From NCBI GenBank assembly GCA_017962275.1, contig JAGCVQ010000038.1:421-64420 (forward strand): 64,000 nt of DNA. The letters are read 5' to 3'. Below, piece by piece: positions 5,653-58,650 of the stretch. This DNA comes from Bacteroidales bacterium (lineage in GTDB: Bacteria; Bacteroidota; Bacteroidia; Bacteroidales; WCHB1-69). Position 1 is the first letter of the stretch. The number at the start of each line of letters is the position of its first letter. The notes under the pieces were generated by a model. The model ran no database searches. It was not told where the DNA came from and saw only the letters and a list, made by a program, of their open reading frames with translations. Both the position numbers and the translations under genes were made by a program.

Positions 5653-5684
5653 GTAGAGACGCAAAATTTTGCGTCTCTTTTTTT
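5653..5684 (+). terminator. intrinsic terminator (palindrome family copy followed by T-run)
   Basis: gtagagacgcaaaattttgcgtctct followed by tttttt, 22 nt after the mscL stop. Confidence 0.8.
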
Positions 5685-5695
5685 ATGGTTTCAAG

Positions 5696-5725
5696 TGTAG
5701 AGACGCAAAATTTTGCGTCTCTACA
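5696..5725. repeat. 28-30-bp perfect palindrome tGTAGAGACGCAAAATTTTGCGTCTCTACa
   Basis: Second copy, in tandem with the mscL terminator. Family members at 9253, 12760, 14148, 35865, 37149 and 57071. Confidence 0.9.
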
Positions 5726-8817: not shown

Positions 8818-9210
8818 TCATTCTTCATCATCGAAATAGTTCTCTTTGATGAAATCGAGTTGGCGGCGGTCGCGTTTGGTGGGACGGCCGAGACCGTGGG
8901 GACGGAACTCCTGGGTCTTGAGCGTCTTCATGCGGTCGTACTCGCTCTGCGGCGTCAGGTCGGTGCAGTACTGAGGCACCAACGGCGCCCCCACCCTGCT
9001 TTTCGGTGCATCCACGACCTCCACGGTCTTGTGCAGCGAGCCGATATGTACTTCATAGACCTCGCCCCTGCGCACGTCGCGGGAGGGCTTCACGTTGTCG
9101 CCGTTGAGCTTCACCTTTCCGGCGTTGCAGGCCTCCGTGGCGATGGAACGGGTCTTGAACAACCGCACCATCCAGAGCCATTTGTCGATTCGCACGTTTA
9201 GGTTTTCCAT
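8818..9210 (-). CDS. hslR: S4-domain RNA-binding heat-shock protein 15-like
   Basis: RIDKWLWMVRLFKTRSIATEACNAGKVKLNG is the S4 fold signature of Hsp15/HslR. Confidence 0.8.
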   Translation of the reverse strand: MENLNVRIDKWLWMVRLFKTRSIATEACNAGKVKLNGDNVKPSRDVRRGEVYEVHIGSLHKTVEVVDAPKSRVGAPLVPQYCTDLTPQSEYDRMKTLKTQEFRPHGLGRPTKRDRRQLDFIKENYFDDEE

Positions 9211-9252
9211 TGTAAAAGGGTTAAAGGGTTACACGGTTACAGGGTTAGGGGT

Positions 9253-9280
9253 TGTAGAGACGCAAAAATTTGCGTCTCTA
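9253..9280. repeat. 28-bp palindrome family copy (loop variant aaaaattt)
   Basis: gtagagacgcaaaaatttgcgtctctac, 21 nt downstream (minus sense) of the DUF2147 gene stop. Confidence 0.9.
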
Positions 9281-9300
9281 CGATATGTGATTTTGCATCT

Positions 9301-12114: not shown

Positions 12115-12386
12115 ATTTTTTCGGATGTAGTAATAGCGAGCCTGAATGTCTTTTGTTTCTTCAATGATTCTAACATGATGCGTGAACGGTACTCTAAAGA
12201 AATCCTCTATTGGAAAATCCTTTGATACCGGTATTTGTAAAGAGTGGAAAATATCTATCTTTAATAGACGGCTAACTGTATGCGGTTCACCCCTTTGGAG
12301 GCTTCATACTGTCCTTGGAGAATAGCCTCTTTGATGGTTTCCACTGCATGTCGTAATCCTGCGGATATGTGTTTTTCTTGTTCCAT
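12115..12386 (-). pseudogene. decayed DUF1016 (YhcG-like PDDEXK nuclease) gene remnant
   Basis: An intact TAtcTTTG box and ATG 12386 give MEQEKHISAGLRHAVETIKEAILQGQYEASKGVNRIQLAVY*. Further DUF1016-like pieces lie in two other frames (GIKGFSNRGFL*, FTHHVRIIEETKDIQARYYYIRK). The nuclease-domain two-thirds of the gene is missing. Confidence 0.6.
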
Positions 12387-12466
12387 ACGGTCATTTTGAA
12401 TATCAAGATGCAAAGATATAACAAAACAATGCGAATGATGGGGAAACGCCTCGTCCAACACCGCGC

Positions 12467-12700
12467 AAAAAGAAAGTGGAGCCATCATTCAACAGTCTCC
12501 ACTCGGTAGGGCCTGGACTCCCTGTTAGTAAGATACTGAAGAACAAGCCCCACCTTATTGGCATAAATACTCAATAGGCAAGCTTGATTCCGGGTATCCG
12601 TACTAACTTCTGTAAACTGTCCAGGTTCACCGAGACGGACAAGCGAAACTCGCTTTCTTTTCAATAAAATCCCGTTGCCTCGTCTCGCGACGAAACAACG
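12467..12700 (-). ncRNA. candidate structured small RNA, family not identified (copy 1)
   Basis: On the minus strand, the -7 box tatctttg (12704-12711) is followed by a 14-bp GCGA-capped hairpin, a small hairpin, a rod of about 150 nt, and the terminator AGUGGAG..CUCCACU+UUCUUUUU. The 73-aa ORF here is judged spurious. Confidence 0.55.
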
Positions 12701-12703
12701 GGG

Positions 12704-12711
12704 CAAAGATA
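12704..12711 (-). promoter_or_regulatory. -7 box TAtcTTTG of sRNA copy 1
   Basis: The reverse complement reads ttattatctttgcccc. Confidence 0.55.
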
Positions 12712-12759
12712 ATAAAAAGATGGATTGGTTGTGTGGTTATTTTTCGTTGAGCGCTGGTG

Positions 12760-12787
12760 GTAGAGACGCAAAATTTTGCGTCTCTAC
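12760..12787. repeat. 28-bp palindrome family copy
   Basis: gtagagacgcaaaattttgcgtctctac, inside the 323-bp repeat. Confidence 0.9.
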
Positions 12788-12945
12788 GGTGCGACGACGA
12801 CCGGAAACAACATGGTTTCTTGCGAAATCTTGTTCTAAAAATTAACAATTCACAAAACCAATTGTTAAATCCATCTACGTATTTGTTTGGCCGCCAATTG
12901 GATGCAAAATTTCGCAGATCCCTTGACAAAGGGCATTTCTTGTTG

Positions 12946-12953
12946 TATATTTG
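12946..12953 (+). promoter_or_regulatory. -7 box TAtaTTTG upstream of the RhuM-like gene
   Basis: Context is tgtatatttgcag, 36 nt upstream of ATG 12989. Confidence 0.6.
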
Positions 12954-12988
12954 CAGACGGAAATTCATTAACCTAAAGACGAAAGAAC

Positions 12989-13855
12989 ATGAACCAGAAC
13001 AACGGCGAAATCATCCTCTATCAACCCGACAGCAGCATTCGGTTGGAAGTCCGGATGCAAGAAGAAACAGTGTGGCTGACGCAAGCACAGATGGCCGTGC
13101 TGTTTGGCACACAAAGGGCTGCCATAACAAAGCATCTGAACAACATTTACAATAGTGGTGAAATAGAACGAGAAACCACGTGTTCCAAAATGGAACATGT
13201 GGGCCAAAATGGAACACGTGTATATTCTACAAAATACTACAATCTCGATGCAATACTGTCGGTCGGGTATCGTGTCAACAGCAAAAACGCCACATCTTTC
13301 AGACGTTGGGCAACACATACATTAAAGGAATTTCTGTTACACAGATATAGTTCTGTTCAACATGTTCAATTTGTAGAACAGCGAATCGACAGGCAATTAG
13401 AGGAACATTCAATGAGAATCCTTGCCCTTGAAGACAAGGTCGGTTTCTTTGTCCGTAGCGCACTGCCGCCTGTAGAGGGCATCTTCTACGATGGGCAAAT
13501 CTTTGATGCGTACACTTTCGTGGCGGACTTGATTCGTTCGGCACGGGAACGAGTCATTATTATCGACAACTACGTGGACGACTCCGTTCTGAAGACCCTC
13601 ACCAAACGTAATGACGGAGTTAGCGCCTCCATAATAACGCGGAAGATTTCGGATGAGTTGGCTGTGGACCTCGAGCGTCACAACCAACAGTATCCACCGG
13701 TGGAAATCACCACTTCGGATCGCTATCACGACCGATTTCTCATCATCGACAATACCGTTTACCACCTCGGTGCCTCTGTTAAAGACCTTGGAAAGAAGCT
13801 CTTTGCGTTCAACAGGATGGAGGTGACAGCAGAAGAATTATTAGCTGACAAATGA
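12989..13855 (+). CDS. RhuM-like N-terminal domain fused to a PLD-like C-terminal domain
   Basis: The N-terminal ~110 aa (IILYQPDSSIRLEVRMQEETVWLTQAQMAVLFG...YYNLDAILSVGYRVNSKNATSFRRWAT) matches the RhuM family as I know it. The C-terminus (IFYDGQIFDAYTFVADLIRSARERVIIIDNYVDD...HDRFLIIDNTVYHLGASVKDLGKK) resembles the C-terminal module of Bacteroides ORF6N-type proteins. Confidence 0.75.
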   Translation: MNQNNGEIILYQPDSSIRLEVRMQEETVWLTQAQMAVLFGTQRAAITKHLNNIYNSGEIERETTCSKMEHVGQNGTRVYSTKYYNLDAILSVGYRVNSKNATSFRRWATHTLKEFLLHRYSSVQHVQFVEQRIDRQLEEHSMRILALEDKVGFFVRSALPPVEGIFYDGQIFDAYTFVADLIRSARERVIIIDNYVDDSVLKTLTKRNDGVSASIITRKISDELAVDLERHNQQYPPVEITTSDRYHDRFLIIDNTVYHLGASVKDLGKKLFAFNRMEVTAEELLADK

Positions 13856-14088
13856 AAAAGAAAGTGGAGCCTTCATTCAACAGTCTCCACTCGGTAGGGC
13901 CTGGACTCCCTGTTAGTAAGATACTGAAGAACAAGCCCCACCTTATTGGCATAAACACTCAATAGGCAAGCTTGATTCCGGGTATCCGTACTAACTTCTG
14001 TAAACTGTCCAGGTTCACCGAGACGGACAAGCGAAACTCGCTTTCTTTTCAATAAAATCCCGTTGCCTCGTCTCGCGACGAAACGACG
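13855..14088 (-). ncRNA. candidate structured small RNA, family not identified (copy 2)
   Basis: Same unit as 12467-12700. Its terminator hairpin starts at the last base of the RhuM-like stop codon. Confidence 0.5.
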
Positions 14089-14091
14089 GGG

Positions 14092-14099
14092 CAAAGATA
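14092..14099 (-). promoter_or_regulatory. -7 box TAtcTTTG of sRNA copy 2
   Basis: Same sequence as 12704-12711. Confidence 0.5.
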
Positions 14100-14147
14100 A
14101 TAAAAAGATGGATTGGTTGTGTGGTTATTTTTCGTTGAGCGCTGGTG

Positions 14148-14175
14148 GTAGAGACGCAAAATTTTGCGTCTCTAC
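14148..14175. repeat. 28-bp palindrome family copy
   Basis: gtagagacgcaaaattttgcgtctctac. Confidence 0.9.
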
Positions 14176-14290
14176 GGCGAGACGTATGTCACACCCACAC
14201 ATCATTCACTTCTTCTGCCGGAGGCAGATCCTTTCAGTAACCCCATACGGCAGTATGGGGTGGTGCGCACCGACAGGCCACGGTCGCCCA

Positions 14291-14392
14291 GTATATAGTC
14301 ATCGGCGCTTGCGTATATAGGCATCGGCGCTTGCGTATATAGGCATCGGCGCTTGCGTATATAGGCATCGGTGCTTGCGTATATACTCATCT
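14291..14392. repeat. 22-bp tandem repeat, about 4.6 copies
   Basis: Units of gtatatag(g/t)catcgg(c/t)gcttgc start at 14291, 14313, 14335 and 14357, with a partial unit at 14379. The partial unit contains the stop codon of the gene at 14387-16576. Confidence 0.9.
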
Positions 14393-16576
14393 GCTCTTGA
14401 GTACCTTCCCGACTCCGCCCTCGGTGCGCAAGAAATAGACCCCGGCGGGAAACGACGAAAGGTTAACGATGTGGGAGCAATCCGGCAGGTCATCAATCAT
14501 CAGCACAAGGCGGCCGTAAAGGTCATACACGGCAATCTGCCGCAACGGGAGAACGCTTTCCACGCGGACGAGACCTGCGGCAGGGTTCGGCCAGACACGG
14601 AGTTCCTCGCGCACGTGCGACACGACCGCGCTGTGTTCCGGAGGCACTGTCCCGACGAAAAAAGCCGCACCGCCCGCGTAGTTGCCGAGAAGCAATTCCG
14701 GTTTCCCGTCGCCGGTGAGGTCAGCCACAGCGACAGCAACTCTCCTACCCTCCCGGAACGGCTGCGCAACGCCCTCGACCGTCTCCGCAAGGTTACCCTC
14801 CGCCTTCTCGAAGACCCCGTCCAAATTGCCGTCAACATGCTTGTAATAAGCTACTTCGCCCAACTCTCCGGCGCAAAACAACACCGTGCCGTGCTGCGCG
14901 TCACGATAGAAACAGGGAACGCTGTACCCGAAATAGGACTGCGTGAAATCCCGCATGTCAACACCGCCGAGCGTATCCGTTATCTGCTGAAATTCAGGGA
15001 TATTCGTACTGATGTTACGGTAATAAGACAACAAACCGCGGCGATTTCCGACAATCAAATCCTCGCGCCCGTCGCCATCCAAATCGAAACACTGAGGCGT
15101 GCTGTATTCTCCGACGTCTATGTTCGAAAAGTGCTCCGTAATCGGCCCCTCTCCGGTCTGCAAACGCTGGTGCGGGACAAGGAGCAACGTACCGTCCTCC
15201 AACCCGCAGAGCATATCCACCGCCCCGTCCCCTTCGAAATCCCCGAAAGTGGGATGCAACGCCTTGAACCCGAGACTTTTGAGGTTGCCAAAATCATCGG
15301 TCTGCAAGGTAAAAGCGGGGGTGGTCGCCGTACCCGTATTGCGGTAGTAACGCACCGACGAGGAAAAATAGGCGGTCAGCCAGCCATTCACGGTCTTGGC
15401 ACTGTCGAACGAGCCGTAATTCCCTATAAACAAATCCAATAACCCATCGCCGTCAAAATCGTGCAAGACCGGATGACAGCCACTCCCCACATCCACCATC
15501 TCCCCTTGGAGAAAATCGGTCTGCGAAAGCGTATATTGTTGTAACGAAGCATCATATTCATATACCCACACACTATTCCTGTCCTGAGATTTCGTGAGCG
15601 AAGGGTCCGAGGGCGACACCACCAGCGACGGCGCGTCGTGTCCAGGCAAGGTCACGAAGGAGGCCGCCGGCATCGAGTAGAGCTGGACCGGCATCTGCGG
15701 CGGCCAGCTCGTATCCTGCACCGTCATCCGCGCATCGGAAAGCGTGCCGTGGTTGTACAACATGATATTGTACGGCGAATCCACATCGCCGAGCAGCAGG
15801 TCAGGCAGACCATTGCCATCGAAATCGTGAAGCAACATCGAGGAGCCCGTATGGCGCGTATGGTCGTCGCCCGTTTTATTGTCACAATCCGAAAAGAGTG
15901 TCACCGCATTGTTGTCAGCGGCCTCCTCGAAATGGCCCCAGCACTCATTTTCCAGCCGAAAATCGAAGTCCTCATCTGCATCGGCGTAGTTGCGCAGATG
16001 ATGCACATAACGGCCCATCACCCAGAAGTTCAGGATATCGAGATGGCCGTCGCCGTCAATGTCATCCACCACTATATAATCGTCAGGCGAAGCGTAGATG
16101 TTGGTATAGCCGTTGTAGTAGAAAGCCTCCAGCGGATCCGCCACGAGCTCGAACCGCAAGGTGTCGTCGGAAACGTTCTTGAAAACGCGCACCGAAGCCA
16201 ACCCGTAAGTGAAGATGTCGGCCTTGCCGTCGTGGTCATAGTCGTAAAGGATGACCCAGTCATGTAGATCGGGAAAACGGCGGGCATACTGCGGGGCGTA
16301 CTCGTAACCGCCGCCCACGCGCAGGAAGGGCAGCAGCCGGTTGCCATGCTTCTCAAAGCCAAGCAAGTCGGGTTCACCGTCGAGATCAAGGTCAATTTCA
16401 GAAAAACGGACGGAATTGAGACCACCCGCCCACGGAAGCTCTAACGGCTGCCCATTTCCGACGACAGGTACAGACAGGTCGCGTTCAAAACCAAAGTCGT
16501 AATAGGTACTCTGCGCCGGTGCCGAGACGAGCCACAGCGTAAAAAGAAGAAGACCGATAAGGGGTTTGGGGCTCAT
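14387..16576 (-). CDS. FG-GAP/VCBS-like repeat protein with type A T9SS C-terminal sorting domain
   Basis: Signal peptide and repeated DxDGDGxxD motifs (DLDGEPD, DIDGDGHLD, DFDGNGLPD, DFDGDGLLD, DLDGDGRED). The C-terminus LRVWPNPAAGLVRVES...IAVYDLYGRLV...FPAGVYFLR fits the Por secretion tail. Confidence 0.85.
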   Translation of the reverse strand: MSPKPLIGLLLFTLWLVSAPAQSTYYDFGFERDLSVPVVGNGQPLELPWAGGLNSVRFSEIDLDLDGEPDLLGFEKHGNRLLPFLRVGGGYEYAPQYARRFPDLHDWVILYDYDHDGKADIFTYGLASVRVFKNVSDDTLRFELVADPLEAFYYNGYTNIYASPDDYIVVDDIDGDGHLDILNFWVMGRYVHHLRNYADADEDFDFRLENECWGHFEEAADNNAVTLFSDCDNKTGDDHTRHTGSSMLLHDFDGNGLPDLLLGDVDSPYNIMLYNHGTLSDARMTVQDTSWPPQMPVQLYSMPAASFVTLPGHDAPSLVVSPSDPSLTKSQDRNSVWVYEYDASLQQYTLSQTDFLQGEMVDVGSGCHPVLHDFDGDGLLDLFIGNYGSFDSAKTVNGWLTAYFSSSVRYYRNTGTATTPAFTLQTDDFGNLKSLGFKALHPTFGDFEGDGAVDMLCGLEDGTLLLVPHQRLQTGEGPITEHFSNIDVGEYSTPQCFDLDGDGREDLIVGNRRGLLSYYRNISTNIPEFQQITDTLGGVDMRDFTQSYFGYSVPCFYRDAQHGTVLFCAGELGEVAYYKHVDGNLDGVFEKAEGNLAETVEGVAQPFREGRRVAVAVADLTGDGKPELLLGNYAGGAAFFVGTVPPEHSAVVSHVREELRVWPNPAAGLVRVESVLPLRQIAVYDLYGRLVLMIDDLPDCSHIVNLSSFPAGVYFLRTEGGVGKVLKSR

Positions 16577-34998: not shown

Positions 34999-35073
34999 TA
35001 CCGGGTAGGGGATTCGAACCCCTGATTTTAAGAATGAAAATCTTACGTCCTAGGCCGACTAGACGAACCCGGC
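34999..35073 (-). tRNA. tRNA-Glu (anticodon UUC)
   Basis: The reverse complement is GCCGGGT TC GTCT AGTCGGCCT AGGAC G TAAGA TTTTCAT TCTTA AAATC AGGGG TTCGAAT CCCCT ACCCGGT A. It folds as a cloverleaf with a TTC anticodon. The D-arm is typical of tRNA-Glu, and CCA is not encoded. Confidence 0.9.
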
Positions 35074-35864: not shown

Positions 35865-35894
35865 TGTAGAGACGCAAAATTTTGCGTCTCTACA
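35865..35894. repeat. 30-bp palindrome family copy; likely terminator of the DUF4332 gene
   Basis: tgtagagacgcaaaattttgcgtctctaca lies 7 nt downstream (minus sense) of the stop at 35901. It is followed on the minus strand by aatttttg. Confidence 0.85.
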
Positions 35895-36566: not shown

Positions 36567-37079
36567 ATGAAGCGAATCATCAACCCCTGGGTGGGAAATA
36601 CAAAAGGTTACAACTGCTTCGGGTGCTGTCCCGACAACCCGAGCGGTGCGCACATGAACTTTTTCTGGGACGGCGAACAGGTGGTGTCGGTCTGGAAGGC
36701 GAACCCGAACTTCGTGAGCTGGATCGACACGCTGCACGGCGGCCTCCAGGCGACCCTGTTGGACGAAATCTGCGGGTGGGTGGTCTTCTACCAGCTGCAG
36801 ACCTCCGGCGTGACGGCCAAGATGGAGATGCGTTACCGCAAGCCGGTGAGCACGCTGTGGCCTTACATCCGGCTGAACGGCAGGCTGGTAGAGCAACGAC
36901 ACAACGTGGCGGTGGTGCACGGCGAAATCCTCAGTCCCGACGGAGTCTGCTGCGCCGAGTGCACCTGCACCTACTTCGTCTTCACCGACGAGAAATCCCG
37001 CGAGATGGGCTACATGCCCGCCGTCCTCGACGACGTGGAACTCACATTGGACGAAGCCGTCGTGCTGCTGGGACGATAA
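36567..37079 (+). CDS. PaaI/hotdog-fold thioesterase
   Basis: LHGGLQATLLDEICGW core motif. The size (170 aa) and N-terminal CxxC are typical of this family. The antisense ORF 36441-37094 and the Arg-rich ORF 36623-37309 are rejected. Confidence 0.8.
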   Translation: MKRIINPWVGNTKGYNCFGCCPDNPSGAHMNFFWDGEQVVSVWKANPNFVSWIDTLHGGLQATLLDEICGWVVFYQLQTSGVTAKMEMRYRKPVSTLWPYIRLNGRLVEQRHNVAVVHGEILSPDGVCCAECTCTYFVFTDEKSREMGYMPAVLDDVELTLDEAVVLLGR

Positions 37080-37081
37080 GA

Positions 37082-37137
37082 GTTCAAGGTTCAAAGTTCA
37101 AAGTTCAAAGTTCAAGGTTCAAGGTTCAAGGTTCAAT
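37082..37137 (+). repeat. degenerate heptamer array GTTCAAR
   Basis: gttcaag gttcaaa gttcaaa gttcaaa gttcaag gttcaag gttcaag gttcaat, starting 3 nt after the thioesterase stop. Confidence 0.9.
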
Positions 37138-37148
37138 AATGACGGAAA

Positions 37149-37176
37149 GTAGAGACGCAAAATCTTGCGTCTCTAC
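37149..37176. terminator. 28-bp palindrome family copy followed by tttt
   Basis: gtagagacgcaaaatcttgcgtctctac + ttttg. Confidence 0.75.
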
Positions 37177-37429: not shown

Positions 37430-40400
37430 ATGAAGAAATTTACGATTTTTTGTGCGCTGCTGTTCTTGACGGCAAGCATGGTGAACGGTCAAACCATTAC
37501 CCAGACCAACACCCAGTTCCCGAACCCGGGGTTCGAGAAATGGACAAACCACACTGGAGCAGATGTGTATCAAGGAACCTCCTATGTTCCTGACAATTGG
37601 CATACTTTTGATGAAGTCTTATGCCAAACTACACTCAATATCGGTTGTGGCGAAGCGGTGAAAACCAGTCATGAGCGATTATCAGGAAGTGACGCACTAA
37701 GCGGTTCTTATTCTTTAGACTTATTGACCCATAGGGCTGCAGGTATTGCCAGGGCTAACGGAACGATAACATCCGGCCGTACGCGTGTGGGAAGCATAAC
37801 CGTAACTAACTATCAAAATTACAATTATTCAGACCTATCTAATAGCAGTTCATACGGAAACGGGCATTTCTACTGGCCTTTTATTGGCTGTCCCGATTCC
37901 ATGTCTTTCTATTATAAAACAAACTGGTCAAGTTCATCAAACCAACCGCTTATCAAGGTATATTTGCACAAAGGAGCATGGTATGATCACGCCAATGGGG
38001 CTGTGAACGCCAGCGCATCTAGTAGCTCTTCTGACTTGAACAATACCAACCTAATAGCTTACTGTCAAACAGCATTCTCCCCCTCCACATCTTGGGCACG
38101 ATTTGCTGATAAGTTCATCCACTATTCCAATAATTCAGCTAACAATGACAACGACTACTCTACCATCACCCGTCCTCAATACATCTTGGCTTCTTTCTCA
38201 ACCAACGAATCAGCCGGTGGTGGCACCGATAATGATAGACTAGCCCTTGATAACCTTTGGTGCATTTACGACAAAGGACTCTCCTCCGTATCCATCGGCG
38301 GCACGGCGAACAGCGCCGCTTTGAACGCTTTCAATGCAGCAGAGTTCGCCACACACGAGCCTGCATGCGCCTACGATGCCAGTGGGAATCCTATCTTCAA
38401 CAACAGCGGAAGCACGACCTTCAACTACCCCACCCCGGTTGCTTGTAACAACATTCCGCAAGTAGCTGCGCAACCCAAATCGAAGCTCATCACCGCGTTC
38501 ACCGTCACGCAGGCCAACGCTGACAACGGCTACAAAGCCACCATCCACGTGGTGCATAACGACAACTCCACCTTCGATTACTACATCCAGTTCGCGGTGG
38601 ACCTCCCCACGTTGACCGCCACGGCCACCCCTCAGGTCGTTTGTGAGGGTGCTTCGGCCACGCTGAACGTGACGGGGGCCAACACCTACAGCTGGAGCAC
38701 CGGTCAATCCGGTTCCTCCATCACCGTGACCCCGACCCAGCAACACACCACCTACACGGTCACCGGCACAGCCTCCAACGGCTGCTCCAACACAGCCTCC
38801 GTTTCCGTGGAGATGCAACCTCAACCGACGGTCTCCATCTCCGGCAGCACTTCGATTTGTGCCGGCCTTGCCACCACCCTGACGGGTACTGGCGCAGCAA
38901 GCTACGTTTGGTCGAACGGCAGCCATGACAGTTACATCCAAGTGACGACCGGCGGTTCCTACACCGTGACCGGCAGTACCAGCTACGGCTGTACCGCCAC
39001 GGCCACCGTGACTGTCACCGCTCACGACGCGCCTACCGTCACCATCGACGGTCCGACCTTCCTGTGCAGCGGCACCACGGCCACGCTGACCGCCTCCGGA
39101 CTGAGCAACTACACCTGGAGCGGCAGTGCTCAAGGCAATGACAATCCGCTGACCATCACCTCCGGCGGCACCTACACCGTGAGCGGCACCGATGCCAACG
39201 GTTGCAGCGGCAGCACCACCAAGAGTGTCACGGGAAAGACCACCCCGACGGTCACCATCAGCGGCACCACCGCCCTCTGTGACGGGGCAACGGGCACGTT
39301 AACAGCCAACGTCACCCCGGCAAATTCCACCCTCACTTGGAACAACGGCAGCACGAGCAGCAGTCTGGACATCACCTCAGCAGACACCTACACCGTGACG
39401 GCCTCGTTGGACGGCTGCGAAAGTTCTGTCAGTGTGACCGTCACCTCGGCAGCGTCCCCGACAGCGCCCACCGCGAACAACGGTTCCCGCTGCGGCGAGG
39501 GCACGGTGGAGCTTTCTGTCAACAACCCCGTCGATGGCTACACCTACCACTGGTACACCCAGCAGTCGGGAGGATCAGAAGCTGGCAACGGCACCACCTT
39601 CACCACGACTAACCTCGTAAACCCGAACACATACAACTACTACGTGAGCGCACAGAACGAGGGTGGATGCTTCTCTCCCCGCACACAAGTGACCGCCACC
39701 GTCAACGCAGTCCCTGCGAATCCCGGTGTCGACGGCATGAGCGTTTGCGGTGCAAGCGACATCACCCTGACGGCCACCTCCGCTAACACGGTAAAATGGT
39801 ACTCCGATGCTGCCGGCAACAATGAGATCACGGCCGCACAGCACGTCACGGGCGATGCCACTTTCTATGCCGCTGCCATCAGCAGCAACGGTTGTCGCAG
39901 CGCACTTGTCCCGTTGACCGTCACGGTGAACGAGATTCCCGCCGCGCCTGTCGTCACCACGACCCCGGCCTCCCCGATTTGCTCCAACAACAGCGTGAGC
40001 GTGCAGCTCAACGTCCCCCAATTGACCGGTTACAACGTAAAATGGTACAACAGCGAAATGCAGTATGAAGGTCAGGGTTTCCAAATGACGAGGACGGTGA
40101 ACGGAATCACCACATACTATGCTACCATCACCAACAGCAACACCCAGTGTGTGAGCGCGGAAACGCCGGTCGAAATCGTCATCAACCCGCTGCCCACCGC
40201 TCCCAGCGACGTCACTAACGCCAGTGTTTGTGGATCGGGCGACATCACCCTCACGAACCAGTCCACCTCCGCGACGAACTGGTATTCCGACCCCAATGGG
40301 GAAACCGAAGCTGCTGTAAACCAACATATCACTTCGAACACCACCTTCTATGCCGCCGTTGTTGACCAGAACAACTGCCGCAGTTCCCTCGTCCCGATGA

Positions 40401-43400
40401 CCGTGACAGTGAATCCCGTCTATGCGCAAACGGACGATTACCAGACTGCTTGCGGTTCCTACACCTGGCAAGGCGAGACCTACACCACTTCGGGTGACAT
40501 CACGAAAACCATCTCCAGCAGTCTCGGCTGCGACAGCACCGTGACGCTGCACCTGACCATCAACAACGGCTACAATGTCTCCTTCGACACCACCGTTTGC
40601 AATGCGTTCACGTGGCTGGGTGAAACGTACACCACCTCCCAGACTATTGAAAAGAACCTGCAGAGTGTGAGCGGCTGCGACAGCATCGTCACTTGCCACC
40701 TGACCGTGAAGCACAGCTCGACCTCCACGCAAACGATTACGGTTTGCAACAACGAGATACCCTTCATGTTTGCAGGCACGGAAATCACCTCAGCCGGTAC
40801 CCAAACCATCACGTTACCCAACGCCAACGCCGACGGCTGTGACAGCATCATCACGTTGACCGTGAATGTGAACCCGACGCCGGGCACTCCAACCCTCAAT
40901 TCCACCGTTCTCTCCAGATGCGGTGCCGGAACTCTCAACCTGAATGTTTCCAAGGGCAGCAACAGTGACGGTTGCCGCTGGTATGCAACGCAAACTGGCG
41001 GAGAGCCGATCCACACCGGCCTTAGCTATACACCCGAGCTGACGGAAAGCACCACTTTCTACGTGTCGAGCTACAGCAACGCCGGCTGCGAAAGCGACCG
41101 CATTGAGGTGGCTGTCACCGTGAATGAGGTTCCGGGCGACCCGCAGATTACCACCGCCGAGGACACCCGCTGCGGTGCAGGTGATGTCATTCTTTCCGCC
41201 GCTGTGGGCGAGAACGGCACGCAATGCCGCTGGTATGGCAACAACAATCCGAACAACACTACGGTACTGAGCACGGAGAGCACTTACACCGTGACCTTCA
41301 ACAACAACCAAAACACCACCCGTACTTTCTACGTGGAGAGCTACAACGTAGCCACTGGCTGTAAAAGCGCGACCCGTGTGGCTGCTGTGGCCACGGAGAA
41401 CGCTGTTCCCGCCGCCCCGCAGGTAACTGACGCAACGAATTGCGGACCGCTCACCGCCGACCTCGCCGAATATGTAAACACTTCCGCAGACCTCTTCCGC
41501 TGGTACGACAGCGATGAAACCCAACTGGCCGAGAACGCCCATTACAACACAACCGTCAATGAATCAACCAATTTCTTAGTCAGCGTGTACAACAGCGAGA
41601 CCACCTGCGAGAGCCCGAAGTCAACCTTGACGGTGACTATCCGTCCGACCTACGAACCGCAATCCATCCACGACACCATCTGCCAGAATGTCCCCTACCA
41701 GAACTACGGCATCGCCCAGACCTTCACCACTGCTGGCGAAAAGAGCTTTGTGCTCAACACCGTCACCGCCAATGGCTGCGACAGTCTGGTTACATTATAT
41801 GTATATGTCAAACCGCAGGTGACCAATACCATCACGGCCGAAGCTTGCAACGAGTATGTTTGGAACGGAGAGACTTTCTCGGAATCAAACACTTATGTAA
41901 GAACGCTCACAGCTGCGAACGGATGCGACAGCGTGGTGACCCTGAACCTGACCATCAACACCGCCCAGCATCAAGATGTGTACGAAACCGCTTGCGACAG
42001 CTACGAATGGAACGGCGAGACTTACACCGCGTCGGGCGATCACACGATGACCTTCACATCGGCCAACAGCTGCGATTCTGTCGTGACGCTGCACCTGACC
42101 ATCAACTCGTCCACCTCATACACCGACGTCCACGATGTTTGCAACAGCTTCACCTGGATTGACGGCAACACTTACACCGAGAGCAACAACACCGCTACCT
42201 TCACGATGCCCAATGCCGCCGGTTGCGATTCCGTAATCACCCTGAACCTCACCGTCAGAAAGGCCACGGCCTACACCGACGTCCACGACGTTTGCGACAG
42301 CTACACCTGGATTGACGGCACCACCTACACCGAGAGCAACCACACGGCCACCTATACCACGACCAACGCTGCAGGCTGTGATTCCGTGATCACCCTGGAC
42401 CTCACCGTCAGAAAGGCCACGGCCTTCACGGATGTCCAAGAGGCCTGCAGCAGCTACACCTGGATTGACGGCATCACCTACACCGAGAGCAACCACACGG
42501 CCACCTTCACCACGACCAACGCCGCGGGCTGCGATTCCGTAGTGACCCTCGACCTCTCCATCCACCAACCTGTCGTCAAGAATTTGACCGACACGGTCTG
42601 CCAAGGCACCCCATACAACCGCCACGGCTTCCAGCTCGCCACGGATGTGCCGGGAACATACACCGAGACCCATAATTTGACGACCGTCTTCGGTTGTGAC
42701 AGCACCGTCACCCTCGAGCTCACCGTGAATCCCGCGCATCAGGTGCAACTTGCCGATACCATCTGCATCGGGGAGCCCTACACGGAAAATGGCTTCAACA
42801 TTCCCGCCGCCACGCAACCGGGTACCTTCCCCCACACCCTTTCCCTTCAGAACGCATACGGCTGCGACAGCACCGTCATGTTGAGCCTCACCGTGGCTCC
42901 CACCCAGTACATCGTGCTGAACGATATGGTATGCGCAGGTGAGCATTACACTAACTACGGTTTCGACACCACCCTCAGAGTGGCGGGCACCTACACGCTG
43001 ACCCACAACGACCTGACGGTCTTCGGATGCGACAGCACCACCACGCTGTCCCTCGTTGTGACACCCACCTACCAGACTCACCGGTACGACACCCTCTGCT
43101 TCAATGGAAGCATTTTCTTCAACGGCCAAACCTTAACGGCACCGGGCATTTATAGGGACACCCTTCCCTCCGTCCACGGCTGCGACAGTATCGTCATCCT
43201 GCACCTGAGTGTCCGTCCGGAGAAACGTCGGGACATTGTGGCGCACATCTGCAACGGCAGCGACTACACCGAGAACGGATTTAACATCACAGGCGCTACC
43301 GAAACTGACGACTACGAAAACAACAACCTCGATGTGAACGGCTGCGACAGCACGACCACGCTGCACCTTTTCGTCCATGACCCGGTCATCACGGAGCTGT

Positions 43401-46400
43401 CCGACACGGTTTGCCAAGGCACTGCCTACAACCGCTACGGATTCCAGTTTGACGCCGATGAGGCCGGCATCGTCACCCTGACGCAGGAGTTAGAGACCTC
43501 TTTCCACTGTGACAGCATCGTCATCCTGACGCTGACCGTGAACCCCTCGCACGACCTGACCTATGATGTTGACGGTTGTGTCAACGAACCCGTCTCTGCC
43601 TACGGTTTCGACACCACGTTCAACAAAGCCGGCCACTACACGCTGGTGCACCAAGGACTGAATGTTTACGACTGCGACAGCGTGACCACCCTGAACGTCC
43701 ACATCTACGCAAAACCGCAAACTTACCTCAACGCCACCATCTGCTACAACGACGAGTATGATTTCCATGGCGTGATGCTCACCGAAGAAGGTCTTTACAC
43801 GGACACTCTGACCTCTGCGCACGGTTGCGACAGCATCGTGAGACTCTACCTGACCCAATATCCCGAGAAGAGCCGCAGTTATGAGGCGCACACCTGCTAC
43901 GGGGAGGAATACAACGGTTACGGTTTCAGCATTCCGAACCCGACAGTTACTGACGATTACGTGAATAACGACTCCGACGTGAACGGCTGCGACAGCATCA
44001 CCACGCTGCACCTGATCGTGCATGAGCCCGTCACCACCATGCTCGAAGAGACTCTTTGCGTGGGCGAGGTTTACAACCAGAACGGCTTCCACATCCCGGT
44101 CATGTCCGCCATCGACACCATATACACCCAAAACCTGCAGACCGTGTTCGGTTGTGACAGTGTTGTCAACCTGCACCTTATCGCCAACCCGGTCCATTAC
44201 ATTGAACTGACCGACGATGTTTGCGCAGGTGTTCCCTACAACGACTATGGTTTCGACACCACATTCGCCAACGCAAACACCTACACCCTGATGAACATCG
44301 ACCAGAATGTCTATGGCTGCGACAGCGTCACTGTCCTGTACCTGAACGTTCACCCCAACTATAACATCAATATCTCCACCACCATCTGCGCCAACACCAG
44401 CTACAATTTCAACGGCAACGAGCTGACCGTTTCCGGTGTTTACACGGCGGAGCTGAGCACGGTTCACGGCTGCGACAGCATTGTCACCTTGACCCTCAAC
44501 GTGGGTGCGGAATTCCGTGACACCATCACCGACCACATCTGCGAAGGCGCTTCCTACGACAAGTACGGATTCACGATCGAGTCCCCGGAGACCGGTTTCT
44601 ACGACCAACATCTGACTTCCCAGAGCGGTTGCGACAGCTTTGTGGTGTTGCATCTTTATGTCCATGAGCTGAACACCACCGAATTGTTCGACACCATTTG
44701 CGAAGGAAATCCATACACGCTTTACGGCTTCAACATTCCCACCCCCGTCCTTGGTTCCCAAACCATCACCCGCACCGTCCAAACCGCCTACAGCTGCGAC
44801 AGCGTGGTGGTGTTGAATCTGGAAGTGCTTCCCGTGCATCATTTCGAATATGAGGACGATATCTGCGTCAACGGGCATTACAGCGGTCATGGATTTGACA
44901 CGGTGATCACGCAACCCGGTACCCACACCCTAATCCACTCCGAGGAGAACATCCACGGCTGCGACAGCACCGTCACGCTGCAACTTCGCGTCCACCCCGC
45001 CTACGACCAGACCATCAACGCCGCCATCTGCTACGGGGAGACCTACACCTTTGACGGCATGACCCTGAGTGAAACCGGCACCCACACAGCCGAATACACG
45101 ACGGATTTCGGCTGCGACAGCATCGTCACGCTGAATCTGACCGTCTATCCTGAATACCGCAAGGACATCGAGGCGCACATCTGCTTGGGTGAATCCTATT
45201 ACGCCAACGGCTTCACTATCGATAGCCCGACCGAGACCGACTACTACACCCGCACCACACAGCTTGCCAACGGCTGCGACAGCATCACCTATCTGCATCT
45301 GTTCGTGCACGAGCCTGTCGTCACCGAACTGTACGACACCCTCTGTGGTCAGGGCGCATACTCCGGTTACGGATTCATCATTGCCAACACGACCATCGGC
45401 ACCAATCTCTACACCCGCCATCTCGAGTCCGCCTATGAATGCGACAGCACGGTCAACCTGCATCTGACGGTGAATCCGGTGCACCACATCGTGGTGGACA
45501 CCCTCCTCTGCGCTGGCGAGCCGTTCACAAAGTTCGGGTTCGACACCACCTTCGCTGAAACCGGCAGCTACACGTTGGCTTACGAAGGGCTGAACAACTA
45601 CGGTTGCGACAGCACTTTCACCGTGAACATCGCCGTTCACCCCGTGTTCCAGCATGAAATCGAGGCAGCCATCTGCCATAACGAGACCTACCTGTTCAAC
45701 GGTGTGGCGTTAGCGGAGACCGGCAATTATACCGATACGCTGGCCACCATTTACGGCTGCGACAGCATCGTCACGCTGCACCTGACCGTCTATCCGGAGA
45801 AGCGCGACACCCTTGAGGTGGCAATCTGCGAAGGCGAGAGCTACACCGAGAACGATTTCGAGATTTTCTCTCCTTCTGAGACCAAGTATTACAGCCACGC
45901 GACGACCGATGTTAACGGATGTGACAGCACCACGGTTCTGCACCTCATCGTGAATCCGCGTGCCTACACCAATTTCACCCAGACGCTCTGTGTCGGTGAG
46001 AGCTATACCGAGAATGGCTTCAATGTCTTGGCTTCCGTGCCCGGCACGTTCACCCACACACAGCATCTGCAGACCACCAACGGTTGCGACAGCATGGTCA
46101 CGTTGCAGATCACGGTGAACCCCACGCATCAGATGGTGTTCAACGACACCGCTTGCGCCGGAAGTGCCTACACACAGCACGGCTTCGACACCACTTTCAA
46201 CGAGGCCGGCCTCTACACGCTGATCCACAGCGAGCCGAACGTTTACGGTTGCGACAGCACCATCACGCTGCATCTGCGCGTATGGCCGTCCTACCATTAC
46301 AGCATCTCGACGATGATCTGCGAGAACGGCAGCTACGAATTCAACGGGGAGACCTATACGGAAGCGGGCAGCTACACCGCCGAACTGCAGACCTCGCACG

Positions 46401-49945: not shown

Positions 49946-49953
49946 TATCTTTG
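49946..49953 (+). promoter_or_regulatory. -7 box TAtcTTTG upstream of the CPBP protease gene
   Basis: Context is cgtatctttgccgccg. The octamer array lies between it and ATG 50066. Confidence 0.55.
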
Positions 49954-49970
49954 CCGCCGAAACTTTGAAC

Positions 49971-50050
49971 CGTGTAACCGTGTAACCGTGTAACCGTGTA
50001 ACCGTGTAACCGTGTAACCGTGTAACCGTGTAACCGTGTAACCGTGTAAC
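49971..50050 (+). repeat. perfect tandem octamer (CGTGTAAC)x10
   Basis: Ten uninterrupted identical 8-bp units, counted base by base. Confidence 0.95.
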
Positions 50051-50065
50051 CATAAACCTTCTACA

Positions 50066-50968
50066 ATGAGACTACGTGAAAAACCCTACTGGATCCAACT
50101 TATCGTGCTGGCGCTCTTCATGCTCGGCGGGATGCTGGTGTTCTCGTCGCTGGGGACGCTGATCGTCATGCTCCTCTACCACACACCGAACATGTTAGAG
50201 GCATCCGACCCTGTGACCGCCATCCGCATCACGCAGGCGCTGACCACCATCGGGGCGTTCCTCGTGCCCGCGCTGCTGTTCGCCTACTGCCAGAACCGGC
50301 AGTGGTTCGACTACAACGCCGCCACCCGGCGCCCGAACCAGACAATGGTGAACATGGTGCTGATTTTGTCCGTCACCTTGCTGCCCGTGGTGGGTGTGCT
50401 GTCGGCGTTCAACCAGAGCATCATGCCGCAAGAAGGCTCCGTGGCCGAATTCATGCGCGACATGGAAGAAGCCGCCAACCACATTCTGGAGCTCGTGACC
50501 TCGCAGCGCAGCAGCTGGGATCTCATCTCCAACATCCTGGTATTCGCTGTGTTAGCCGGCATCTGCGAGGAGTTCTTCTTCCAAGGTTCCCTGCAGCCGC
50601 TGCTGATGAACTGGACGAAGAACCCGCACGTCGGCATCCTGCTCACCGCCCTGATATTCAGTGCACTGCACTTCCAGTTCTACGGATTCATCCCGCGGTT
50701 CCTCTTAGGGGTCTATCTCGGCTACCTCTTCTACTGGAGCCGGTCGCTGTGGCTGCCCATCCTGGCGCACGTGCTGCACAATGCGCTCTCCATCATGGTG
50801 GACTACACCCTTCAGGGACGCGGCATCGACACCGACAACATGCAGTACACCGACGTGCACGGTTCGCTGCCCACAGCCGCCGCCTGCGCCCTCATTAGCG
50901 CAATGGCGATTGTCTATATCTGGCGGATTTACCGTGACGAGACGGAAGACGTGAGACGTGAGAGGTGA
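50066..50968 (+). CDS. CPBP-family (CAAX-type) intramembrane glutamic endopeptidase
   Basis: Polytopic protein with the motifs CEEFFFQG, FSALHF and HVLHNA. The last 8 codons (EDVRRER*) are encoded by a GTRAGAC-type word array. Confidence 0.85.
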   Translation: MRLREKPYWIQLIVLALFMLGGMLVFSSLGTLIVMLLYHTPNMLEASDPVTAIRITQALTTIGAFLVPALLFAYCQNRQWFDYNAATRRPNQTMVNMVLILSVTLLPVVGVLSAFNQSIMPQEGSVAEFMRDMEEAANHILELVTSQRSSWDLISNILVFAVLAGICEEFFFQGSLQPLLMNWTKNPHVGILLTALIFSALHFQFYGFIPRFLLGVYLGYLFYWSRSLWLPILAHVLHNALSIMVDYTLQGRGIDTDNMQYTDVHGSLPTAAACALISAMAIVYIWRIYRDETEDVRRER

Positions 50969-57023: not shown

Positions 57024-57070
57024 GAGTTCAAAGTTCAAAGTTTAAGGTTCAAAGTTCAATATTTCGGGAA

Positions 57071-57098
57071 GTAGAGACGCAAAATTTTGCGTCTCTAC
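57071..57098. repeat. 28-bp palindrome family copy between convergent genes
   Basis: gtagagacgcaaaattttgcgtctctac, preceded by a GTTCAAR array (57025-57060). Confidence 0.9.
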
Positions 57099-58549: not shown

Positions 58550-58566
58550 ATTGTTTGGTTTAAGGA

Positions 58567-58650
58567 TTATACGGTTAAGGGGTTACACGGTTAGTGGGTT
58601 AAAGGGTTACACGGTTACACGGTTACACGGTTAGAGGGTTAGAGGTTATT
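58567..58650 (+). repeat. degenerate octamer array GGTTANNN
   Basis: ggttacac ggttagtg ggttaaag ggttacac ggttacac ggttacac ggttagag ggttagag. It lies in the 5' leader (minus sense) of the dipeptidase gene, between its TGTACCTTTGCCG promoter (about 58655-58670) and ATG 58549. Confidence 0.9.

What the first reader, a model, noticed from the sequence alone, without database searches (positions are those of the whole stretch)
12467..14177. R-U-R structure: two 323-bp near-identical complete transcription units bracket one RhuM-like gene
Positions 12467-12789 and 13855-14177 align at a constant offset of 1388 bp with no indels. I compared every base and found only three mismatches (12484/13872, 12568/13956, 12697/14085). 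Read on the minus strand, each copy contains the 28-bp palindrome, a TAtcTTTG box, about 230 nt of highly self-complementary sequence, and a hairpin plus U-run. The 1065 bp between the copies carry one gene with its own promoter. The right repeat starts at the last base of that gene's stop codon. The left flank is a decayed DUF1016 nuclease gene. R-U-R without a second U is the footprint expected from single-crossover (Campbell-type) insertion of a ~1.4-kb circle, or from unequal crossing-over. There is no integrase or transposase in the window. Recombination between the repeats would delete or amplify the gene precisely.
Basis: partly seen in the sequence, partly recalled or inferred. Interest (0 to 1): 0.7.

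Follow-up and report, generated by a model that had tools for sequence, protein, structure and literature searches.

The report
Twin structured-RNA genes bracket a defence gene
The two near-identical 323-bp repeats are real copies of a previously uncatalogued, highly conserved structured RNA of rumen Bacteroidales that flank a candidate anti-phage gene; the arrangement is old and kept identical by gene conversion, not the scar of a recent circle insertion.

Summary
Positions 12467-12789 and 13855-14177 are direct repeats at an offset of 1388 bp with exactly three mismatches. An independent 33-kb assembly carries the same R-U-R structure.

Each repeat (R) holds one gene for a ~235-245-nt structured RNA. 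It has a Bacteroidetes -7 box, eight helices supported by covariation, and an intrinsic terminator. Rfam has no match. About 50 homologues exist in rumen Bacteroidales. In 32 of 42 distinct loci the RNA sits 12-126 nt upstream of a co-oriented gene, often a small Xre-type HTH regulator, so it looks like a 5' leader or attenuator. Both window copies lack such a gene.

The gene between the repeats (U) encodes a DNA-binding domain, a long helix and a PLD-like domain. It matches the PADLOC phage-defence candidate PDC-S05.

The block 12125-14386 is a small variable island between the FG-GAP and DUF349 genes. A relative has these two genes only 69 nt apart, with no R. A sister lineage has R-U-R at the same site, but its copies are only 91% identical. 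The architecture is therefore ancestral, and the 99% identity in the window is later homogenisation. A recent Campbell insertion at this site is refuted. R-mediated cassette exchange between loci remains plausible.

The parts
12125..14386 (.). Variable island inserted between the DUF349 gene (promoter ends about 12124) and the FG-GAP/T9SS gene (stop codon 14387-14389)
   Evidence: L076 has FG-GAP, then 69 nt, then DUF349, with homology to the window resuming at 12124. L069 and L072-74 carry different contents at the same site.
12261..12386 (-). Remnant of a DUF1016-like (PADLOC PDC-S02 type) gene: about 41 N-terminal codons then a stop. Its own TATCTTTG box lies at 12411-12418.
   Evidence: tblastn against the L026 DUF1016_N protein gives 57% over 28 aa, E = 9e-6. 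Pfam finds no hit on the fragment.
12467..12789 (-). R-left: the 323-bp repeat copy, made of the RNA gene, its promoter, a spacer and the REP-like palindrome
12467..12703 (-). Structured RNA gene (R RNA), left copy. U-tract 12467-12476, terminator hairpin 12477-12502, 5' hairpin P1 12671-12702. The start site is inferred a few nt downstream of the -7 box at 12704-12711.
   Evidence: Covariance model score 269.8 bits. Eight-helix fold: 98.3% of cells paired, 15 pairs with compensatory changes, 0 of 500 shuffles reach this. z = -7.8.
12760..12787 (.). 28-bp perfect palindrome GTAGAGACGCAAAATTTTGCGTCTCTAC, a dispersed REP-like element and not part of the RNA family
   Evidence: 8 copies in the window. 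Absent upstream of most R homologues and of L069 R-right.
12842..12868 (.). Operator-like inverted repeat TTAACAATT-N9-AATTGTTAA in the shared cassette leader
   Evidence: Unique in the window, 0 expected by chance. The surrounding ~90-nt leader recurs upstream of the ORF6N, RhuM and DUF1016 genes in L026.
12946..12953 (+). TATATTTG -7 box of U's own promoter, with TTGACA at 12923-12928
   Evidence: Read directly from the sequence and found by the promoter scan
12989..13855 (+). U: 288-aa protein with a RhuM-type DNA-binding N-domain, a long helix and a PLD-like C-domain (HDRFLIID...GAS.KD). Candidate anti-phage gene PDC-S05.
   Evidence: Pfam RhuM 64.4 bits against a cut-off of 33.7. PADLOC PDC-S05 1e-117 over the full length. 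Foldseek: TrmBL2 1e-6, PLD2/NucT/Zucchini about 1e-3.
13855..14177 (-). R-right: second repeat copy. RNA gene about 13855-14091, -7 box 14092-14099, palindrome 14148-14175. Its terminator end abuts U's stop codon, so any read-through would be antisense to U.
   Evidence: Covariance model score 262.9 bits.
14291..14400 (.). 22-bp tandem repeat (5-6 units) at the right edge of the island, overlapping the FG-GAP stop codon. Copy number differs between strains.
   Evidence: L011 has one unit fewer.

Best explanation
R is a gene for a ~235-245-nt structured RNA of a family found in rumen Bacteroidales and not catalogued in Rfam.

In most family members the RNA is the 5' leader of a co-oriented gene. 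This is most often a small Xre-type HTH regulator, and otherwise a secreted or membrane protein. The RNA ends in an intrinsic terminator. It therefore most likely works as a transcription attenuator. The helix that closes the folded domain could extend (UCCG+CUCGG pairing with CCGAG+UGGA), and that extension would sequester the 5' arm of the terminator (GUGGAG/CUCCAC). The signal that would decide between the two states is unknown.

R modules often lie back-to-back with candidate anti-phage cassettes (RhuM-PLD and ORF6N-PLD, both PDC-S05; DUF1016, PDC-S02). These cassettes share one promoter/operator leader.

The window holds a degraded 2.26-kb island of this kind between the FG-GAP and DUF349 genes. 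It contains a DUF1016 stump, R, the leader plus U, and a second R. Both R copies have lost their downstream gene.

The R-U-R layout predates the split from a sister lineage. The 323-bp, 99% identity arose later in the window's lineage, either by gene conversion or by unequal crossing-over followed by deletion.

Shown: the repeat, the RNA fold, the family and its gene neighbourhoods, the empty site, and the diverged sister copies. Inferred: transcription, the attenuator mechanism, the defence role of U, and which homogenising process acted.
For: Repeat and independent assemblies.

Sharp conservation from the -7 box to the U-run across 12 and then 38 distinct homologues (79-92% identical to the window copy).

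Fold: 61 pairs, 98.3% of cells paired, 15 pairs with changes on both sides, 0 of 500 shuffles reach the observed values, and slid controls pair only 37-46%. RNAalifold finds the same core helices.

Not coding: the window copies carry a 1-nt deletion relative to all other homologues, and indels elsewhere are not multiples of three.

No Rfam family at the gathering threshold or at E <= 10.

Leader position: 32 of 42 distinct loci have a co-oriented ORF starting 12-126 nt after the terminator, and none has a TAnnTTTG box in between.

Cassette array with a shared leader, and a 100% identical 300-nt stretch between two RhuM genes in L026.

U.

Empty site L076.

Sister R-U-R with 90.8% copy identity, and L069 R-left 97.5% identical to window R-left against 88% for U and FG-GAP.

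Only two R copies in the window.
Against: - No expression data exist. The start site, termination and read-through are inferred from motifs only.
- The proposed antiterminator pairs never vary, so covariation cannot test them.
- P1 followed by a U-run looks like a terminator right at the 5' end of the RNA, which is odd for a leader.
- Both window copies lack a downstream gene, yet R-left is more conserved than its surroundings. This fits a trans-acting role, or ongoing conversion from other R copies, at least as well as a cis role.
- The direction of the exchange is not resolved. L069 R-right could be the replaced copy. If the ancestor of R-right lacked the palindrome, simple gene conversion cannot explain how the palindrome got into window R-right.
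- U is only a candidate defence gene. PDC families are association-based.
Confidence: 0.65

Rival explanations
1. One reading: a ~1.4-kb circle carrying one R plus U recently integrated by a single homologous crossover into a resident R at this site, creating R-U-R.
For: - Direct repeats of 99% identity bracket one gene, with no recombinase gene nearby.
- A 1529-nt closed-loop contig (1388 + k = 141) exists in sample ERZ28018878.
- At a different locus, L031 has a single R upstream of a 1482-aa gene. L068 has R-U-R there, with a U 100% identical to the U at the FG-GAP locus of L069.
Against: - The sister lineage L069 has R-U-R at the same site with copies only 90.8% identical and the same U/R junction, so the layout is older than about 12% nucleotide divergence.
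- The empty site (L076) has no resident R.
- L072-74 carry another RhuM allele at this site with no R next to FG-GAP.
- A loop contig is also what a de Bruijn assembler produces from R-U-R when the copies are locally identical. It starts exactly after SNP site 12568.
Confidence: 0.1
2. The identity arose by re-duplication rather than gene conversion. Unequal crossing-over between the old R-left and R-right gave R-U-R-U-R. A deletion then removed the second U and the old R-right, leaving a young copy of R-left, with its palindrome, on the right.
For: - The identical tract includes 82 nt of promoter-upstream sequence and the palindrome, both of which L069 R-right lacks.
- The sequence between R-right and the 22-bp repeats is not homologous between window and L069: 208 nt against 88 nt.
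- Tandem or duplicated cassettes occur in relatives (L032 has two RhuM genes; L026 is an array; L041 has tandem R copies).
Against: It needs two events. No intermediate (R-U-R-U-R) was seen in any contig, and the three copy-specific SNPs are stable between strains.
Confidence: 0.2
3. R is a stand-alone, trans-acting small RNA. R-right may also act as a convergent antisense regulator of U. On this view the nearby co-oriented genes are incidental.
For: - A complete promoter and a strong terminator are present.
- The sequence is extremely conserved, with long invariant single-stranded stretches.
- The window copies and several others (L039, L040, L051) have no downstream gene, yet remain intact.
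- R-right's terminator abuts U's stop codon.
Against: 76% of loci have a co-oriented ORF within 126 nt and no intervening promoter box. The gene classes downstream vary while the position stays constant.
Confidence: 0.2
4. Assembly artefact: a single R was duplicated by the assembler.
For: Many contigs break inside R.
Against: - Three copy-specific SNPs make every 141-mer in R copy-specific.
- An independent 33-kb contig, and contigs from several other samples, reproduce the junctions.
- A sister lineage has the same layout with diverged copies.
Confidence: 0.02

Closest known systems
Structured 5' leader RNAs with a terminator expression platform (riboswitches, T-box, protein-dependent attenuators; orphan riboswitch candidates found by comparative genomics)
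   Same: - A multi-helix domain supported by covariation, with long invariant joining regions.
- It lies directly upstream of co-oriented genes and ends in an intrinsic terminator.
- The terminator's 5' arm can alternatively pair into an extended closing helix.
   Different: - No match to any Rfam 15 family, and the ligand or factor is unknown.
- The downstream genes are heterogeneous (Xre-type HTH, lipoproteins, large membrane proteins).
- A terminator-like hairpin sits at the very 5' end.
- Both window copies control no gene.
Concerted evolution of repeated genes by gene conversion (for example rRNA operons and tufA/tufB in bacteria)
   Same: Two paralogous copies within one genome are far more alike (98.8%) than orthologous copies between lineages (about 90-96%), and their neutral flanks are also identical.
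   Different: The copies are only 1.1 kb apart in direct orientation and bracket a dispensable gene. The same recombination could therefore delete or amplify that gene.
IS26-type translocatable units and Campbell-type integration (repeat-gene-repeat)
   Same: - The R-U-R layout.
- The same U, flanked by R, occurs at two different R-bearing loci.
- A closed 1388-bp unit is conceivable.
   Different: R encodes no recombinase, so any movement would depend on RecA. At this locus the layout is ancestral and the empty site has no R.
Integron gene-cassette arrays
   Same: Arrays of single, unrelated accessory or defence genes are separated by a recurring structured module (L026).
   Different: - No IntI lies nearby.
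- Each cassette carries its own promoter and leader.
- The recurring module is a 245-nt RNA gene with its own promoter and terminator, not an attC site.
RhuM family (PF13310) / PADLOC phage-defence candidate PDC-S05
   Same: U matches the PDC-S05 model over its full length (1e-117) and the N-terminal part of the RhuM model. RhuM and DUF1016 genes are known neighbours of R-M and BREX loci (PMC9881135). PDC-S05 and PDC-S02 are abundant in rumen MAGs (PMC13356809).
   Different: Only the first 60 of 252 RhuM model positions match. The C-terminal half is a PLD-like domain with HxR(x)4D in place of HxK(x)4D. No defence phenotype has been tested.
REP (repetitive extragenic palindrome) elements
   Same: The 28-bp perfect palindrome is dispersed in intergenic DNA (8 copies in 64 kb) and is identical in several related species.
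   Different: It is often adjacent to 8-mer or 14-mer microsatellites. No RAYT transposase was looked for.

Membership tests
Campbell-type / single-crossover insertion footprint (R-U-R) | Near-identical direct repeats flank one unique segment | tested here: met
   323 bp, 3 mismatches, offset 1388
Campbell-type / single-crossover insertion footprint (R-U-R) | The empty site in relatives carries exactly one R | tested here: not met
   L076 has FG-GAP and DUF349 69 nt apart with no R. A single-R versus R-U-R pair exists only at another locus (L031 versus L068).
Campbell-type / single-crossover insertion footprint (R-U-R) | The repeats are identical because the duplication is recent, so relatives should lack the second copy | tested here: not met
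   Sister lineage L069 has both copies at the same junctions, 90.8% identical to each other
Campbell-type / single-crossover insertion footprint (R-U-R) | A circular form or excision junction is detectable | tested here: inconclusive
   L004 is a 1388+141 loop contig, but this is equally expected from repeat collapse in a de Bruijn graph. No single-R deletion contig was seen among the few spanning contigs.
Structured non-coding RNA gene | Base pairs are maintained by compensatory changes across homologues | tested here: met
   15 of 61 pairs show changes on both sides, 98.3% of cells are paired, 0 of 500 shuffles reach the observed values, and slid controls stay at or below 46%
Structured non-coding RNA gene | A discrete transcription unit (promoter and terminator) that is actually transcribed | not testable with these tools
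   The -7 box TAnnTTTG and the hairpin plus U-run are conserved, and they mark where conservation starts and stops. No RNA-seq data are available.
Any Rfam 15 family | The covariance model score reaches the gathering threshold | tested here: not met
   tRNA is the only hit in the window. At E <= 10 only chance hits appear.
Cis-regulatory leader / riboswitch-like attenuator | Located in the 5' UTR of a co-oriented gene | tested here: not met
   Not met by the two window copies. Met in 32 of 42 homologous loci, with start codons 12-126 nt after the terminator and no promoter box between.
Cis-regulatory leader / riboswitch-like attenuator | Mutually exclusive terminator and antiterminator pairings | tested here: inconclusive
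   The alternative pairing 75-78 with 224-227 exists, but those columns never vary
Cis-regulatory leader / riboswitch-like attenuator | A defined ligand or trans factor | not testable with these tools
   The downstream genes are heterogeneous and give no metabolic clue
RhuM family (PF13310) / PADLOC PDC-S05 | Profile match above the cut-off | tested here: met
   Pfam 64.4 bits against a cut-off of 33.7, N-terminal 60 positions only. PDC-S05 PDLC04879 matches at 1e-117 over 3-282 of 285 positions.
RhuM family (PF13310) / PADLOC PDC-S05 | Confers protection against phage | not testable with these tools
   PDC families are candidates defined by association
PLD (HKD) superfamily | PLD fold plus the HxK(x)4D(x)6GSxN motif | tested here: inconclusive
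   Foldseek hits PLD2, NucT, Zucchini and PLD3 at about 1e-3 (TM on target up to 0.49), from a model with mean pLDDT 73. The motif reads H247-D-R-F-L-I-I-D254...G261-A-S-x-K, with R where K is expected. H247, D248, R249 and D254 are invariant in 36 homologues.
Integron cassette array | An IntI integrase and attC sites, with promoterless cassettes | tested here: not met
   No integrase lies within about 10 kb. The cassettes carry their own conserved promoter and leader. attC sites were not searched for separately.

The most novel reading that the evidence does not exclude
The conserved R leader modules are dispersed at many loci in these genomes. They may serve as integrase-free landing pads for defence cassettes. 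A PDC-S05, ORF6N or DUF1016 gene with its shared leader would be excised as an R+U circle by R x R recombination. It would then be captured at any other R by RecA-dependent recombination, in the same or another genome. This would leave R-U-R footprints that gene conversion keeps recombination-competent. The result would be a homology-driven analogue of integron or IS26 cassette traffic, built on a regulatory RNA gene. A separate possibility is that R is a new riboswitch-like RNA class controlling Xre regulators of such cassettes.
Probability: 0.2. Interest if true: 0.7.

Novelty: new member of a known kind. Interest (0 to 1): 0.5.

Why it matters
Taken alone, the R-U-R repeat is an ordinary product of homologous recombination. 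It marks a gene that can be lost or amplified precisely.

The more useful result is what R is. It is a sharply bounded, strongly conserved, covariation-supported ~240-nt RNA with no entry in Rfam. About 50 examples were recovered from rumen Bacteroidales, usually just upstream of small Xre-type regulators and next to candidate anti-phage genes. This gives RNA biologists a new candidate regulatory RNA to test.

It also gives phage-defence researchers two things. One is a recurrent regulatory module (RNA, HTH gene and operator-bearing leader) around the abundant but untested PDC-S05 and PDC-S02 genes. The other is a concrete case of concerted evolution and cassette turnover inside a miniature defence island.

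Tried and rejected
- Rfam at the gathering threshold and at E <= 10: nothing relevant.
- BLAST of R plus the leader against the phage and plasmid collections: no match. Only one IMG/VR contig carries the 20-mer. R is therefore not typically phage- or plasmid-borne.
- Search for the partner HTH gene in the window: absent.
- Coding potential of the 73-aa ORF inside R: rejected, because of frame-breaking indels among homologues and because substitutions are compensatory in stems.
- Homology of R-right's outer flank to the cassette leader, which would have made R-right the stump of a neighbouring cassette: not significant (67 of 1000 shuffles score as well), so dropped.
- An apparent truncation of U in L011 (called as 147 aa): a gene-calling artefact, since the ORF is intact.
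- A pseudoknot between AGGG and CCCU around the GUCCAG segment: the co-variation seen in five sequences is equally explained by two wobble changes in the nested model, so it is not claimed.
- Integron, MITE or transposon readings: no integrase or transposase nearby, and cassettes with their own promoters. Terminal inverted repeats and target duplications at the island ends were not specifically searched for.
- FopS and other published Bacteroides sRNAs: nothing relevant turned up in the literature searches; no sequence comparison was made.
- The last contig look-up (P0122) ended 68 nt after FG-GAP and added nothing.
Full report
**1.

Positions 12467-12789 and 13855-14177 are direct repeats at a constant offset of 1388 bp with no indels. 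Identity stops abruptly at both ends, and the sequences just outside the repeat are no more alike than shuffled sequence.

U's stop codon is at 13853-13855, so the right repeat does begin on its last base.

The structure is not an assembly artefact.
- A 33-kb MEGAHIT contig from another sample (L011/L018) spans flank-R-U-R-flank at 99.8% identity to the window. Its R copies differ from the window's opposite copies to the same degree (5 mismatches in 330 nt).
- Other contigs cross single junctions.
- Many short contigs break inside R, as expected for a repeat.
- One contig, L004, is a closed loop of 1388 + 141 nt.

**2. What R is**

R has no Rfam family, either at the gathering threshold or at E <= 10. 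Its minus strand folds much better than shuffled sequence (z = -7.8).

Exact-word scans with conserved R segments recovered two sets of loci.
- Seven loci in rumen and goat Bacteroidales MAGs: RUG182, RUG125, RUG538, RGIG1517 and others.
- Thirty-four metagenome loci.

Together with relatives reached through the U protein, this gave about 50 copies. They are 79-92% identical to the window copy, and 38 are distinct full-length sequences.

In these alignments, conservation begins at the Bacteroidetes -7 box (TAnnTTTG; 12704-12711 in the window, minus strand) and ends at the terminator U-run. Sequence outside that span is unrelated between loci.

A nested model of eight helices and 61 pairs is well supported.

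| Measure | Result |
|---|---|
| Cells paired | 98.3% |
| Pairs with changes on both sides | 15 |
| Shuffles reaching the observed values | 0 of 500 |
| Cells paired when partners are slid by 1-3 columns | 37-46% |

RNAalifold finds the same core helices.

R is not protein-coding. Frame-breaking indels occur among homologues, including a 1-nt deletion specific to the window copies.

A covariance model built from the alignment finds exactly two copies in the window, at 270 and 263 bits.

The 28-bp palindrome inside the repeat is not part of this RNA family. It occurs eight times in the window. It is also missing upstream of most homologues.

**3. How R most likely works**

In 32 of 42 distinct loci, a co-oriented ORF starts 12-126 nt after R's terminator. 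In none of these is there a TAnnTTTG box in between.

About half of these ORFs are small Xre-type HTH proteins of several diverged subfamilies. The rest are signal-peptide or lipoproteins and very large membrane or surface proteins.

The RNA is more conserved than the genes that follow it. This is the signature of a cis-acting 5' leader with a terminator, that is, an attenuator or riboswitch-like element.

A plausible switch exists. The helix that closes the folded domain (CUCGG/CCGAG, which has compensatory changes) can extend through UCCG/UGGA. That extension would occupy the 5' arm of the terminator hairpin GUGGAG/CUCCAC. These positions never vary, however, so covariation cannot test the idea.

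I rate the cis-leader reading as the most likely mechanism, at roughly 45-50%. A stand-alone trans-acting sRNA is the main alternative. Neither can be decided without expression data.

**4. What U and the neighbourhood are**

U (12989-13855) matches the following.
- The N-terminal part of Pfam RhuM.
- The PADLOC phage-defence candidate PDC-S05 over its full length, at 1e-117.

An AlphaFold model (mean pLDDT 73) shows a DNA-binding N-domain, a long helix and a C-domain. Foldseek relates the whole protein to TrmBL2 at 1e-6. It relates the C-domain to PLD-fold proteins (PLD2, NucT, Zucchini, PLD3) at about 1e-3.

The invariant motif H247-D-R-F-L-I-I-D254...GAS.KD is an HKD-like motif with R in place of K.

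In relatives, R modules sit back-to-back with such genes. L026 carries this array:

HTH(-) R(-) | ORF6N-PLD(+) RhuM-PLD(+) | HTH(-) R(-) | DUF1016_N(+) | partial R | RhuM(+)

Each plus-strand gene in that array is preceded by the same ~90-nt leader. The leader contains an operator-like inverted repeat, which is TTAACAATT-N9-AATTGTTAA at 12842-12868 in the window. Two RhuM genes in the array share 300 nt at 100% identity, which is direct evidence of gene conversion.

The ORF6N protein shares U's C-domain. DUF1016 matches PDC-S02.

Published work supports the defence context. RhuM and DUF1016 genes are enriched next to R-M and BREX loci (PMC9881135). PDC-S05 and PDC-S02 are among the most abundant candidate defence genes in rumen MAGs (PMC13356809).

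**5. History of this locus**

A relative whose FG-GAP protein is 79% identical (L076) has FG-GAP followed after 69 nt by DUF349, with the same downstream synteny and no R. The window segment 12125-14386 is therefore an island.

Its left part is a promoter plus about 41 codons of a DUF1016-like gene. R-left still carries the ~25-nt post-terminator sequence that precedes the HTH gene in other loci. The HTH gene itself is gone.

A sister lineage (L069) is 87.7% identical to the window in U and 88.3% in the FG-GAP 3' end. It has R-U-R at the same site with the same U-stop/R junction, but its two copies are only 90.8% identical. Its R-right has a different P1, a longer variable hairpin and no palindrome.

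Another sister lineage (L072-74) has a different RhuM allele abutting FG-GAP, with no R between them.

Within the window, the 82 nt upstream of the RNA are identical between the two copies. The same 82 nt differ at 9 positions between window and L069.

Two conclusions follow.
- The R-U-R architecture predates the lineage split.
- The 99% identity is younger than the split, so the copies have been homogenised.

The homogenising process was either gene conversion or unequal crossing-over followed by deletion. The second would better explain how the palindrome reached R-right. I cannot tell which lineage was overwritten.

**6.

The description of each repeat as a complete transcription unit is supported by comparative evidence. 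So is the absence of integrase or transposase genes nearby.

One part of the idea survives at another locus. L031 has a single R upstream of a 1482-aa gene. L068 has R-U-R at that locus, homologous to L031 from R's promoter onward at 91.5% identity. The U in L068 is 100% identical to the U at the FG-GAP locus of L069, whereas the adjacent R-left regions differ by 4%.

That pattern is what recombination within R or the leader would produce if cassettes move between R-bearing loci. The loop contig L004 is compatible with a circle or an amplified array. Repeat collapse explains it equally well: the contig starts exactly after SNP site 12568, and in that strain site 12697/14085 is homogenised.

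**7. Novelty and interest**

The repeat itself is ordinary recombination biology, and U belongs to a known candidate-defence family.

The new element is the R RNA family, which is not in Rfam and did not turn up in the literature I could search. It is strongly conserved, covariation-supported, linked to Xre-type regulators and defence cassettes, and apparently a substrate for concerted evolution and cassette exchange.

I file it as a new member of a known kind (structured leader or small RNAs). Interest is moderate, at 0.5.

The most novel reading still open is that R modules act as integrase-free landing pads for defence cassettes. I give this about 0.2 probability.

Noticed in passing
window 5653-5680, 5697-5724, 9254-9281, 12760-12787, 14148-14175, 35866-35893, 37149-37176, 57071-57098: The 28-bp perfect palindrome GTAGAGACGCAAAATTTTGCGTCTCTAC is a dispersed REP-like element and is identical in several related species (L021, L026, L068, L069). 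Several copies sit directly beside short tandem repeats: 8-mers of the GGTTACAC type at 9196-9247, and 14-mers GTTCAAAGTTCAAG at 37055-37150 and 56999-57080.
   Followed up: partly
window 49952-50071 and 58542-58649: Arrays of the 8-mer AACCGTGT and its complement form long imperfect inverted repeats (up to 92 nt, 80% complementary) 8.5 kb apart. They may flank an invertible or mobile segment.
   Followed up: no
window 14291-14400: A 22-bp tandem repeat (GTATATAGGCATCGGCGCTTGC, 5-6 units). Its last, degenerate unit overlaps the stop codon and final codons of the FG-GAP/T9SS gene. One unit fewer is present in the independent assembly L011, so copy number is polymorphic.
   Followed up: partly
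window about 38900-49600: A very long coding region built from about 30 diverged repeats with periods of roughly 159, 318 and 645 nt around the conserved core GGCTGCGACAGC. It is probably a giant Cys-containing repeat surface protein.
   Followed up: no
L004 (ERZ28018878 k141_348216), equivalent to window 12569-14097: A closed-loop contig of 1529 nt (1388 + k-mer 141), made of one R plus U. In the same sample the right-flank contig L012 stops only 16 nt into R-right. This hints at strain mixtures, or at excess coverage of the R+U unit relative to the flanks.
   Followed up: partly
L026 5454-5753 and 8121-8420: Two RhuM-type genes in one array share 300 nt at 100% identity in their C-terminal halves, while their N-terminal parts are only about 76% identical. 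This indicates recent gene conversion between cassettes.
   Followed up: partly
L041 7861-8412; L028 2126-5905: R, in tandem duplicate in L041, is followed by the 96-aa HTH gene and then by a ClpB/ClpV-like AAA+ ATPase of about 813-854 aa. In some genomes the R-HTH module may head a secretion-system-like or stress operon.
   Followed up: no
L033 723-1100 and L067 (downstream of R): R is followed first by a decayed N-terminal fragment of the HTH gene and then, about 380 nt downstream, by an intact copy. This suggests local duplication or replacement of the regulator gene.
   Followed up: no
L072-L074 9175-10011 (orthologous site): A different RhuM-PLD allele (79% nt identity in the C-terminal half) lies 27 nt from the FG-GAP stop with no R in between. 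The same insertion site therefore holds different cassette configurations in different lineages.
   Followed up: partly
window 34999-35073 (-): A single tRNA gene, the only Rfam hit in the window.
   Followed up: no
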